DNA from: Eledone cirrhosa | Lineage: Eukaryota | Direction of reading: 5' to 3' | NCBI GenBank assembly: GCA_964016885.1 | Contig: OZ024747.1 | Coordinates: 17,112,001-17,176,000, forward strand | DNA: 64,000 nucleotides | Shown: positions 2,677 through 4,847 of the stretch, piece by piece | How positions within the stretch are numbered: position 1 is the first letter of the stretch | Layout of the letters: the number at the start of each line of letters is the position of its first letter | Program-made: the position numbers and the translations under genes | The notes under the pieces: generated by a model | What the model saw: only the letters and a program-made list of their open reading frames with translations | Told to the model about the DNA's origin: nothing | Databases searched by the model: none

Positions 2677-4847
2677 TTTCTGCCGGACCGGCAACCGCTC
2701 TTTCAAACCAGTTCCTGTACACAGCTAAGTATTCTATAAGTCTCTAGCTGTGTCATTCTCGATAAAAGCACTGGATATGTAGTCCTGATGAATTCTAACA
2801 AGAATGAAACGCGTAGACTTACTTCCCTTGCTTTTATCGAGAATCTAATTGTAATACGTGACGTATTCTATTCTATAGCGATTAGGTCTTCAAAATGTTT
2901 ATTATAAACATACAGAATATTTTCGAATATTCTATGTCTATATTCACATATATATCGCTATTTCAGAGCATTTATTCCAATTTCTAATTTCTGCCGGACC
3001 GGCAACCGCTCTTTCAAACCAGTTCCTGTACACAGCTAAGTATTCTATAAGTCTCTAGCTGTGTCATTCTCGATAAAAGCACTGGATATGTAGTCCTGAT
3101 GAATTCTAACAAGAATGAAACGCGTAGACTTACTTCCCTTGCTTTTATCGAGAATCTAATTGTAATACGTGACGTATTCTATTCTATAGCGATTAGGTCT
3201 TCAAAATGTTTATTATAAACATACAGAATATTTTCGAATATTCTATGTCTATATTCACATATATATCGCTATTTCAGAGCATTTATTCCAATTTCTAATT
3301 TCTGCCGGACCGGCAACCGCTCTTTCAAACCAGTTCCTGTACACAGCTAAGTATTCTATAAGTCTCTAGCTGTGTCATTCTCGATAAAAGCACTGGATAT
3401 GTAGTCCTGATGAATTCTAACAAGAATGAAACGCGTAGACTTACTTCCCTTGCTTTTATCGAGAATCTAATTGTAATACGTGACGTATTCTATTCTATAG
3501 CGATTAGGTCTTCAAAATGTTTATTATAAACATACAGAATATTTTCGAATATTCTATGTCTATATTCACATATATATCGCTATTTCAGAGCATTTATTCC
3601 AATTTCTAATTTCTGCCGGACCGGCAACCGCTCTTTCAAACCAGTTCCTGTACACAGCTAAGTATTCTATAAGTCTCTAGCTGTGTCATTCTCGATAAAA
3701 GCACTGGATATGTAGTCCTGATGAATTCTAACAAGAATGAAACGCGTAGACTTACTTCCCTTGCTTTTATCGAGAATCTAATTGTAATACGTGACGTATT
3801 CTATTCTATAGCGATTAGGTCTTCAAAATGTTTATTATAAACATACAGAATATTTTCGAATATTCTATGTCTATATTCACATATATATCGCTATTTCAGA
3901 GCATTTATTCCAATTTCTAATTTCTGCCGGACCGGCAACCGCTCTTTCAAACCAGTTCCTGTACACAGCTAAGTATTCTATAAGTCTCTAGCTGTGTCAT
4001 TCTCGATAAAAGCACTGGATATGTAGTCCTGATGAATTCTAACAAGAATGAAACGCGTAGACTTACTTCCCTTGCTTTTATCGAGAATCTAATTGTAATA
4101 CGTGACGTATTCTATTCTATAGCGATTAGGTCTTCAAAATGTTTATTATAAACATACAGAATATTTTCGAATATTCTATGTCTATATTCACATATATATC
4201 GCTATTTCAGAGCATTTATTCCAATTTCTAATTTCTGCCGGACCGGCAACCGCTCTTTCAAACCAGTTCCTGTACACAGCTAAGTATTCTATAAGTCTCT
4301 AGCTGTGTCATTCTCGATAAAAGCACTGGATATGTAGTCCTGATGAATTCTAACAAGAATGAAACGCGTAGACTTACTTCCCTTGCTTTTATCGAGAATC
4401 TAATTGTAATACGTGACGTATTCTATTCTATAGCGATTAGGTCTTCAAAATGTTTATTATAAACATACAGAATATTTTCGAATATTCTATGTCTATATTC
4501 ACATATATATCGCTATTTCAGAGCATTTATTCCAATTTCTAATTTCTGCCGGACCGGCAACCGCTCTTTCAAACCAGTTCCTGTACACAGCTAAGTATTC
4601 TATAAGTCTCTAGCTGTGTCATTCTCGATAAAAGCACTGGATATGTAGTCCTGATGAATTCTAACAAGAATGAAACGCGTAGACTTACTTCCCTTGCTTT
4701 TATCGAGAATCTAATTGTAATACGTGACGTATTCTATTCTATAGCGATTAGGTCTTCAAAATGTTTATTATAAACATACAGAATATTTTCGAATATTCTA
4801 TGTCTATATTCACATATATATCGCTATTTCAGAGCATTTATTCCAAT
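2674..4847 (+). mobile_element. Tandem array of the same 311-bp monomers, right arm, inverted, ~7 copies
   Basis: Reverse complement of the left-arm unit. HHR starts at 2779, 3090, 3401, 3712, 4023, 4334, 4645 (period 311). Copies look identical by eye. Confidence 0.9.
2779..2822 (+). ncRNA. Type I hammerhead ribozyme (further copies at 3090-3133, 3401-3444, 3712-3755, 4023-4066, 4334-4377, 4645-4688)
   Basis: Helix I GTAGTC/GACTTAC; core CUGAUGA (2785-2791); helix II ATTCT-AACA-AGAAT; GAAA (2806-2809); palindromic helix III ACGCGT; predicted cleavage after GUA at 2815. Helix I is extended by a perfect 16-bp ATTCTCGATAAAAGCA/TGCTTTTATCGAGAAT stem. Confidence 0.9.

What the first reader, a model, noticed from the sequence alone, without database searches (positions are those of the whole stretch)
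2750..2975. Monomer folds extensively; its ribozyme has a dimer-type palindromic helix III
Seen: helix III is only ACGCGT (2 bp plus a 2-nt loop in cis), a perfect palindrome. Other self-complementary blocks tile the unit: ATTCTCGATAAAAGCA/TGCTTTTATCGAGAAT, CAGCTA/TAGCTG, AATACGT-G-ACGTATT, ATAGCGAT/ATCGCTAT, GAATATT..AATATTC, GCCGG-A-CCGGC. Known: HHRs with an unstable palindromic helix III (ASBVd plus strand, newt satellite 2, PLE HHRs) can cleave as double hammerheads. Inference: multimeric transcripts cut efficiently while monomer circles stay stable, giving a built-in processing switch.
Basis: partly seen in the sequence, partly recalled or inferred. Interest (0 to 1): 0.7.

Follow-up and report, generated by a model that had tools for sequence, protein, structure and literature searches.

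The report
Two-armed hammerhead retrozyme insertion
This is one of more than a thousand copies of a known kind of animal jumping RNA, a 311-base repeat with a self-cutting ribozyme predicted to cut best as a pair; its two back-to-back arms with fixed ends suggest it is likely copied round and round from an RNA circle by a Penelope-type enzyme starting from both target DNA strands.

Summary
Window 1385-4847 is a protein-free 311-bp repeat with a type I hammerhead whose helix III is the palindrome ACGCGT. The circle folds far better than shuffles (z -4.6), and two copies fold spontaneously into a double hammerhead. It is an animal non-LTR retrozyme (17,000 ribozyme copies in this genome). The dimer-switch reading is published and typical of animal type I hammerheads; kinetics were not testable here.

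What I did not find in print for retrozymes is the insertion pattern. 95 of 103 loci are two head-to-head arms in (TA)n. Their outer ends lie at two fixed points about 35 nt apart (the Penelope 'tail'), with a 9-bp target duplication in 7 of 11 informative loci. Both arms share one sequence variant, and inner ends ignore the cut site (6 of 182). This fits two-strand, rolling-circle copying of one uncut RNA circle by a Penelope-type enzyme (inferred). A sister family supplies compensatory pairing. The partner element and the RNA itself were not found. The scan noted a similar pattern for a ribozyme-free element in another genome.

The parts
1385..4847 (.). Whole retrozyme insertion: two head-to-head arrays of a 311-bp unit inside a (TA)n microsatellite
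1385..2676 (-). Short-end arm, 4.15 copies, 4 hammerheads; outer (3') end at monomer position 131
2674..4847 (+). Long-end arm, 6.99 copies, 7 hammerheads; outer (3') end at monomer position 166
2674..2676 (.). Head-to-head junction of the two arms, 3-nt microhomology
1376..1384 (+). Left copy of the 9-bp target-site duplication
4848..4856 (+). Right copy of the 9-bp target-site duplication
2816..3126 (+). One monomer, cut site to cut site; the predicted circular RNA. The 9 full units of the window are identical
2779..2822 (+). Type I hammerhead, first plus-strand copy: helix I 5' strand 2779-2784, CUGAUGA core 2785-2791, helix II 2792-2805, GAA 2806-2808, predicted cut after GUA at 2815, helix I 3' strand 2816-2822
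   Evidence: (Rfam HH9 17.8 bits, below its gathering score of 52)
2809..2814 (+). Palindromic helix III (one A-U pair plus CGCG loop in cis; 6 bp between copies)
2755..2844 (+). 16-bp lower stem (2755-2770 with 2829-2844) extending helix I; closes the monomer; 8 of 15 counted pairs change on both sides across the aligned families
2915..2932 (+). UUCG-capped hairpin upstream of the short end; GCAA-capped with compensatory pairs in the sister family; candidate enzyme-binding element (inferred)
4813..4847 (+). [quoted passage not shown]
   Evidence: PMC8557442, PMC11167929

Best explanation
This is a protein-free animal non-LTR retrozyme, a 311-bp tandem unit with a type I hammerhead predicted to cut mainly as a double hammerhead, and it is likely spread by a Penelope-like element's enzyme copying a monomer RNA circle from both strands of a nicked (TA)n target. 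Shown: the unit, ribozyme motif, copy number, two-arm architecture, fixed outer ends, 9-bp duplication, within-locus uniformity and compensatory pairing. Inferred steps: (1) arrays are transcribed as multimers; (2) neighbouring copies swap helix I and pair their helix III palindromes, cutting out monomers; (3) the 16-bp stem holds the ends together for a host ligase; (4) the circle cannot form helix III alone and persists; (5) a Penelope-type RT/GIY-YIG protein nicks both strands of (TA)n about 9 nt apart and primes at monomer positions 166 and 131-140; (6) both cDNAs run round the circle a variable number of times and are joined head to head, mostly by short microhomology.
For: Architecture: 95 of 103 loci are head to head (the script classed 89, and 6 more show both arms with a junction offset outside its window). 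Short end at 131 in 57 loci and at 133-140 in 31, not seen in 15. Long end at 166 in 7 of 9 loci picked without using that end, the others 168 and 173. 9-bp duplication in 7 of 11 informative loci. Differences per monomer: 0.25 within an arm, 0.20 across arms, 4.0 between loci. Inner ends are spread round the circle, 6 of 182 within 6 nt of the cut site against about 8 expected if uniform. Published Penelope hallmarks match: inverted 5'-truncated copy, 30-40 bp tail at one end, (TA)n targets (PMC8557442); a purified Penelope enzyme cuts and extends both strands and starts at two internal RNA sites that bound the tail (PMC11167929). Structure: double-hammerhead MFE; 15 of 37 pairs change on both sides and 96.9% of cells pair. 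Young intact Penelope-like elements with Hydra-clade motifs exist in this genome.
Against: No autonomous partner sharing sequence with the unit was found. The two Hydra-like families inspected have longer tails (about 68 and 85 nt, read by eye). No RNA, circle or cleavage was observed. 4 of 103 loci have one arm only. 100 of the 103 loci are on the list picked by their long end, so the two-arm share may be overstated; one search lists some loci with ribozymes on one strand only. 2 of 11 informative loci show no duplication, and two show 8 or 11 bp. The covariation mostly reflects one split between two families, and the structure was derived from the same alignment. The 19 kcal/mol gap depends on the ends of the stretch chosen and ignores co-transcriptional folding, which makes the cis helix I first.
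Confidence: 0.75

Rival explanations
1. The same element and enzyme, but the template is an uncut linear multimer transcript from an already uniform source array, not a circle.
For: Multimeric retrozyme RNAs exist in axolotl (PMC7229834). The anole Penelope enzyme uses unprocessed RNA and does not need ribozyme cleavage in vitro (PMC11167929). Eight of nine Xenopus retrozyme dimers did not cleave in vitro (bioRxiv 2026.07.22.740005).
Against: Variants unique among the sampled loci are fixed in all units of both arms (for example a 2-nt deletion in 16 of 16 units of L051), which needs a one-monomer bottleneck. Arms reach 19 to over 24 copies. Partly cut multimers would pile inner ends at the cut site, which is not seen.
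Confidence: 0.15
2. The unit is the terminal repeat (pLTR) of an autonomous Penelope-like element, and the arrays are truncated copies or grew locally by unequal crossover.
For: bioRxiv 2026.07.22.740005 proposes local amplification from pLTRs. An earlier scan finding resolved a look-alike in another genome this way (e1-7908855).
Against: In the 103 loci, the mapped arms consist of the unit and none was seen to run into an ORF (ORFs were listed for 20 of them). Local growth does not explain both arms sharing variants, or outer ends fixed at two points. pLTR ancestry remains possible.
Confidence: 0.06
3. The inverted arms are assembly fold-back artefacts or LINE-type twin priming on a poly(A)-like end.
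For: Inverted repeats can arise from chimeric long reads (recalled). The head-to-head geometry with microhomology resembles L1 twin priming (recalled).
Against: The arms differ in length and register, end at two fixed points, and carry a target duplication. An independent read set shows loose ends into (TA)n at window 2955, 2983 and 2986 (run X2, which may be the source sample). There is no poly(A) end, and L1 twin priming has no fixed internal site.
Confidence: 0.04

Closest known systems
Animal non-LTR retrozymes (coral, mussel, axolotl Rtz331/HHR_Amex1, newt satellite 2; PMC7229834)
   Same: 150-450 bp protein-free tandem unit, low GC, type I hammerhead, highly self-paired predicted circle with the ribozyme left unblocked, target duplication longer than 4 bp. 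Helix III of one pair plus a palindromic tetraloop as in HHR_Amex1.
   Different: The two-arm head-to-head layout, fixed ends 35 nt apart and (TA)n target are not mentioned in the main text of PMC7229834 ('inverted', 'tail', 'microsatellite' 0 hits; its supplement could not be read) or of bioRxiv 2026.07.22.740005. Expression and cleavage are shown there, not here.
Endonuclease-positive Penelope-like elements (Penelope/Poseidon, Neptune, Hydra, Naiad; PMC8557442, PMC11167929)
   Same: Inverted 5'-truncated copy, 30-40 bp tail at one end only, (TA)n target, hammerhead upstream of two internal start sites.
   Different: No ORF. Both arms are multi-copy runs of one short unit rather than a partial tandem of a 3-4 kb element. 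The hammerhead has a full helix I with an internal loop rather than the minimal form.
Non-autonomous Chlamys elements such as MRC1 (PMC8557442, passage)
   Same: Non-autonomous Penelope-type elements with multicopy head-to-tail insertions.
   Different: [quoted passage not shown]
Plant LTR retrozymes and hammerhead viroids
   Same: Small highly paired RNA circles cut out by hammerheads; double-hammerhead regulation as in avocado sunblotch viroid (cited in PMC4209133).
   Different: Those use type III ribozymes, LTRs or RNA-to-RNA replication. No hammerhead was found on the opposite strand of this unit.

Membership tests
Animal non-LTR retrozyme | Tandem unit of about 150-450 bp, no protein, GC under 50% | tested here: met
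   311 bp, GC about 34%, arrays of identical units; no coding-like ORF in the arrays of 20 loci
Animal non-LTR retrozyme | Type I hammerhead with intact core in every unit | tested here: met
   11 of 11 in the window; no locus-fixed change in the conserved core in 96 loci, other than the free position N7; Rfam HH9 match only below threshold
Animal non-LTR retrozyme | Dispersed multi-copy loci with target duplications longer than 4 bp, no LTR | tested here: met
   1,057 exact end junctions; 9-bp duplication in 7 of 11 informative loci
Animal non-LTR retrozyme | Highly self-paired monomer circle | tested here: met
   z -4.6; compensatory pairs
Animal non-LTR retrozyme | Self-cleavage and accumulation as circular RNA | not testable with these tools
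   No bench assay; no RNA holder listed
Double (dimer-dependent) hammerhead | Unstable cis helix III with palindromic loop; stable helix III between copies | tested here: met
   cis probability 0.0, inter-copy at least 0.91; computed only
Double (dimer-dependent) hammerhead | Dimer cleaves much faster than monomer | not testable with these tools
   Needs kinetics; the axolotl analogue does so
Penelope-mobilised element | Inverted 5'-truncated copy and 30-40 bp tail at one end | tested here: met
   95 of 103 loci head to head; tail 35 nt (26-33 where the short end keeps extra letters)
Penelope-mobilised element | Sequence shared with the terminal region of an autonomous Penelope-like element | tested here: inconclusive
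   None found in about 0.9 Mb of fetched loci or by one exclusion pattern; not a genome-wide test. A 25-of-27 match of the ribozyme core and helix II to a 17,167-copy Hydra-like family is only a lead
Autonomous Penelope-like element | ORF with RT and GIY-YIG endonuclease | tested here: not met
   No ORF in the unit

The most novel reading that the evidence does not exclude
These insertions are a genome-wide record of one enzyme complex priming both target strands at two fixed sites of a single ribozyme-locked RNA circle and rolling round it in both directions. That would be direct evidence that animal retrozymes move as circles by Penelope machinery, and that the Penelope tail and inverted arm come from two-strand priming. 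In the boldest form, the youngest family gained its weak palindromic helix III because it keeps the circle shut during copying (arms of many turns, against mostly 1-2 in the older sister family), and recurring A-to-G changes at stem adenosines are RNA edits written back into DNA.
Probability: 0.4. Interest if true: 0.72.

Novelty: new member of a known kind. Interest (0 to 1): 0.5.

Why it matters
The value lies in the insertions. How animal retrozymes move is still stated as a hypothesis (PMC7229834; bioRxiv 2026.07.22.740005 says the precise mechanism remains to be elucidated and suggests local amplification). How Penelope elements make inverted arms and tails is also listed as open (PMC8557442). 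A young family with over a thousand insertions, two fixed start sites and a 310-nt template bears on both questions and gives a minimal substrate for an in vitro test.

Tried and rejected
Rfam at gathering score: 0 matches in the window; HH9 only at 17.8 bits. A DNA search of the own genome with the monomer returned nothing because common words are skipped; patterns worked.

Partner search: two Penelope-like protein queries, sensitive blastn of the unit against the fetched loci, clustering of 1,897 TA-adjacent ends (uninformative: one cluster swallowed 955) and one exclusion pattern found only sister retrozyme lineages. Pfam did not classify the Hydra-like ORFs; that label rests on motifs read against PMC8557442.

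RNA editing test: locus-fixed A>G against T>C sites 7 to 4, p 0.18; against singletons (26 to 45) Fisher p 0.11. Not significant. A>G recurs on 3-4 backgrounds at positions 21, 260 and 277: a lead only.

Selection on the palindrome within family A: no fixed change in its 6 positions, but only about 27 of 311 positions vary, so this is uninformative.

Expression: no RNA holder listed, which is no evidence either way. Whether the read sets are RNA or DNA stays open.

Print searches: retrozyme+hammerhead+metazoan, hammerhead ribozyme+octopus (16), retrozyme+Penelope+inverted (38), cephalopod+Penelope+hammerhead (69), retrozyme+rolling circle+target-primed (93), non-autonomous+Penelope-like+tandem+inverted+circular RNA (94). 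None showed this layout for a retrozyme in the listings or passages I saw. Subscription papers are missing, and Lunse et al. 2017 was not held.

Full report
What is there. Window 1385-4847 holds a 311-bp unit, 4.15 copies on the minus strand and then 6.99 on the plus strand, joined head to head at 2674-2676. The 9 full cut-to-cut units are identical. Each has a type I hammerhead: core CUGAUGA at 2785, helix II, GAAA, helix III ACGCGT at 2809-2814 and a predicted cut after GUA at 2815. Rfam gives no match at gathering score and HH9 at 17.8 bits. The genome is 3.0 Gb and rich in (TA)n. It looks octopus-like to me, but that is recall and was not tested.

Observation check. The circle folds at -67.2 kcal/mol, z -4.6 against 150 shuffles, and the opposite strand at z -5.1; eight control stretches gave +1.4 to -2.6. 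In the circle, helices I and II form (probability 0.76-0.99), the core is mostly open and cis helix III has probability 0.0. In a natural 407-nt stretch with two ribozymes, the free MFE is the double hammerhead with swapped helix I and a 6-bp helix III: -110.5 against -91.4 for two forced single hammerheads. That gap depends on the ends of the stretch and ignores folding order and tertiary contacts.

PMC4209133 (passages) says most metazoan hammerheads are type I with a 1-2 bp helix III capped by a palindromic loop, active as dimers, and that this is thought to allow cleavage in multimers but not monomer circles. PMC7229834 (parts 2-4 of 6 read; supplement unreadable) defines animal non-LTR retrozymes. 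It describes axolotl HHR_Amex1 with one pair plus a palindromic tetraloop, 6% monomer cleavage in an hour, efficient dimers and circles in vivo. The element meets every retrozyme criterion I could test.

Family size. A degenerate ribozyme pattern has 17,000 matches. The window's exact 40-mer has 1,144. The long-end-plus-TA junction has 1,057 exact matches and 1,862 with up to 3 mismatches. The commoner 310-bp form lacks one C in helix I and often has a U-U pair at the base of helix II.

Insertion pattern. I mapped 103 loci: the window, 7 loci found by the ribozyme, and the other 95 of the first 100 places, all on contig C1. One further locus (L038/L039) spans two fetches and a gap and was left out; it is also head to head. 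The script classed 89 as head to head. Six of its 10 'single arm' rows show both arms with a junction offset outside its window, giving 95 of 103. Four have one arm, 2 end in a gap and 2 run off the fetched stretch. One arm ends at monomer position 166. This is by design for 100 loci, but it also holds in 7 of 9 loci picked without using that end, the others being 168 and 173. The other arm ends at 131 in 57 loci and at 133-140 in 31, and was not seen in 15. The difference is a tail of 35 nt. All outer ends listed for 29 loci run into (TA)n. Where the microsatellite is imperfect, 7 of 11 loci show a 9-bp duplication, one 8, one 11 and two none. Among 26 inner junctions, 16 overlap, 6 are blunt and 4 have inserts; two overlap by exactly the 16-bp self-complementary stem. 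Because most loci were chosen by their long end, the two-arm share may be overstated.

One template per locus. Differences per monomer are 0.25 within an arm, 0.20 across arms and 4.0 between loci (25 loci or fetches with full units). In 91 complete loci the arms have medians of 4.1 and 3.1 copies and maxima of 17.6 and 19.0; one arm exceeds 24. Only 6 of 182 inner ends lie within 6 nt of the cut site, about the uniform expectation of 8. Copying therefore runs through the cut site, as expected of a closed circle that is not re-cut.

Match to Penelope chemistry. PMC8557442 (passages and sections 11 and 15) lists an inverted 5'-truncated copy, a 30-40 bp tail at one end and (TA)n targets as Penelope-type hallmarks of unknown origin. 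PMC11167929 (parts 1-2 of 4) shows a purified Penelope enzyme nicking and extending both strands of AT-rich DNA and starting at two internal RNA sites that bound the tail. The pattern here is what that enzyme would leave on a circle; this step is inferred. bioRxiv 2026.07.22.740005 (parts 1-3 of 5; supplements closed) argues for Penelope origin from co-occurrence and pLTR similarity, and suggests local amplification, which these data do not favour. The genome has young intact Penelope-like elements: an 821-aa ORF with 74 matches at 97-100% identity and DKT, CxCx5C, CxxC and CxH motifs like the Hydra clade, and a second family with 17,167 ribozyme matches. Neither shares the tail, so the partner is unidentified.

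Sister family. A second lineage of about 320 bp (1,753 matches) is collinear with the unit and uses corresponding ends. On 14 monomers, 15 of 37 named pairs change on both sides and 96.9% of cells pair, against 34-46% for slid controls. This mostly reflects one split, and the structure came from the same alignment. The UUCG hairpin becomes a GCAA hairpin with compensatory pairs. Of 41 sister ribozymes, 37 have U3-A8 and 4 have C3-G8 in the core, a covariation known in nature (PMC3088659, passages). Helix III is 4-5 bp and stable in cis, a perfect palindrome in 23 of 41. Unbroken arms are mostly 1-2 copies in 20 regions (two longer, mixed stretches), but the family is also older, so this does not isolate the effect of helix III.

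Other read sets. Twenty runs under 18 organism codes and 17 study codes hold 66-94% of the sampled words. X5 and X7 each give one 340-nt contig that closes on itself, while raw DNA reads X23, under the same organism code as X7, gave 0 from about 1% of the run. Contamination between libraries, close kin or transfer cannot be told apart here.

Papers seen only as search listings or passages: PMC7761336, PMC6765202, PMC11722881 and PMC6431247 (passages). Forster 1988 and Lunse 2017 were seen only as citations.

Verdict. The element is a new member of the animal retrozymes. Its insertion record gives unusually direct, still inferential, evidence for two-strand rolling-circle copying by Penelope machinery. 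Interest 0.5.

Noticed in passing
L148, L150-L199 (G000 C1), L210-L229: Sister retrozyme lineages of 310-321 bp sharing an invariant tail motif but with different hammerheads, including U3-A8 and C3-G8 cores and longer palindromic helix III.
   Followed up: partly
L211 (G000:C5:94708500-94713500): A locus whose printed units in both arms carry G instead of A at the cut site, plus other A>G changes in stems; possibly an edited or uncuttable template.
   Followed up: partly
monomer positions 21, 260, 277 across L031-L304: A>G changes fixed within loci recur on 3-4 different sequence backgrounds; overall strand bias not significant (7 to 4 sites, p 0.18).
   Followed up: partly
runs X5, X7, X23 laid on window 2816-3126: Single self-closing 340-nt contigs near-identical to the unit in runs coded as other organisms; none in raw DNA reads of one of those codes. 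Unexplained.
   Followed up: partly
window 57990-58040 (minus); L120-L149: End of a Hydra-like Penelope family (17,167 matches), also head to head in (TA)n with two ends about 68 nt apart; its ribozyme core and helix II resemble those of this retrozyme.
   Followed up: partly
L091:805-3267 and L090-L119: Young, intact 821-aa Penelope-like ORF with Hydra-clade motifs, 97-100% identical copies; no Pfam family passes.
   Followed up: partly
window 4862-5493 and 5243-5648/6758-7163: Further inverted repeats around (TA)n runs right beside the insertion, probably other nested Penelope-type insertions.
   Followed up: no
window 6136, 19178, 46808, 35564, 56852 (minus strand): Other minimal hammerhead-like motifs, several seen again in fetched loci, likely ends of other Penelope-like families.
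   Followed up: no
window 59183-62353: 28-bp satellite, 113 copies, 95% match, strongly strand-skewed.
   Followed up: no
L173-L175: Sister-family array with a 163-bp unit lacking the ribozyme half, yet multi-copy: a possible ribozyme-free derivative.
   Followed up: no
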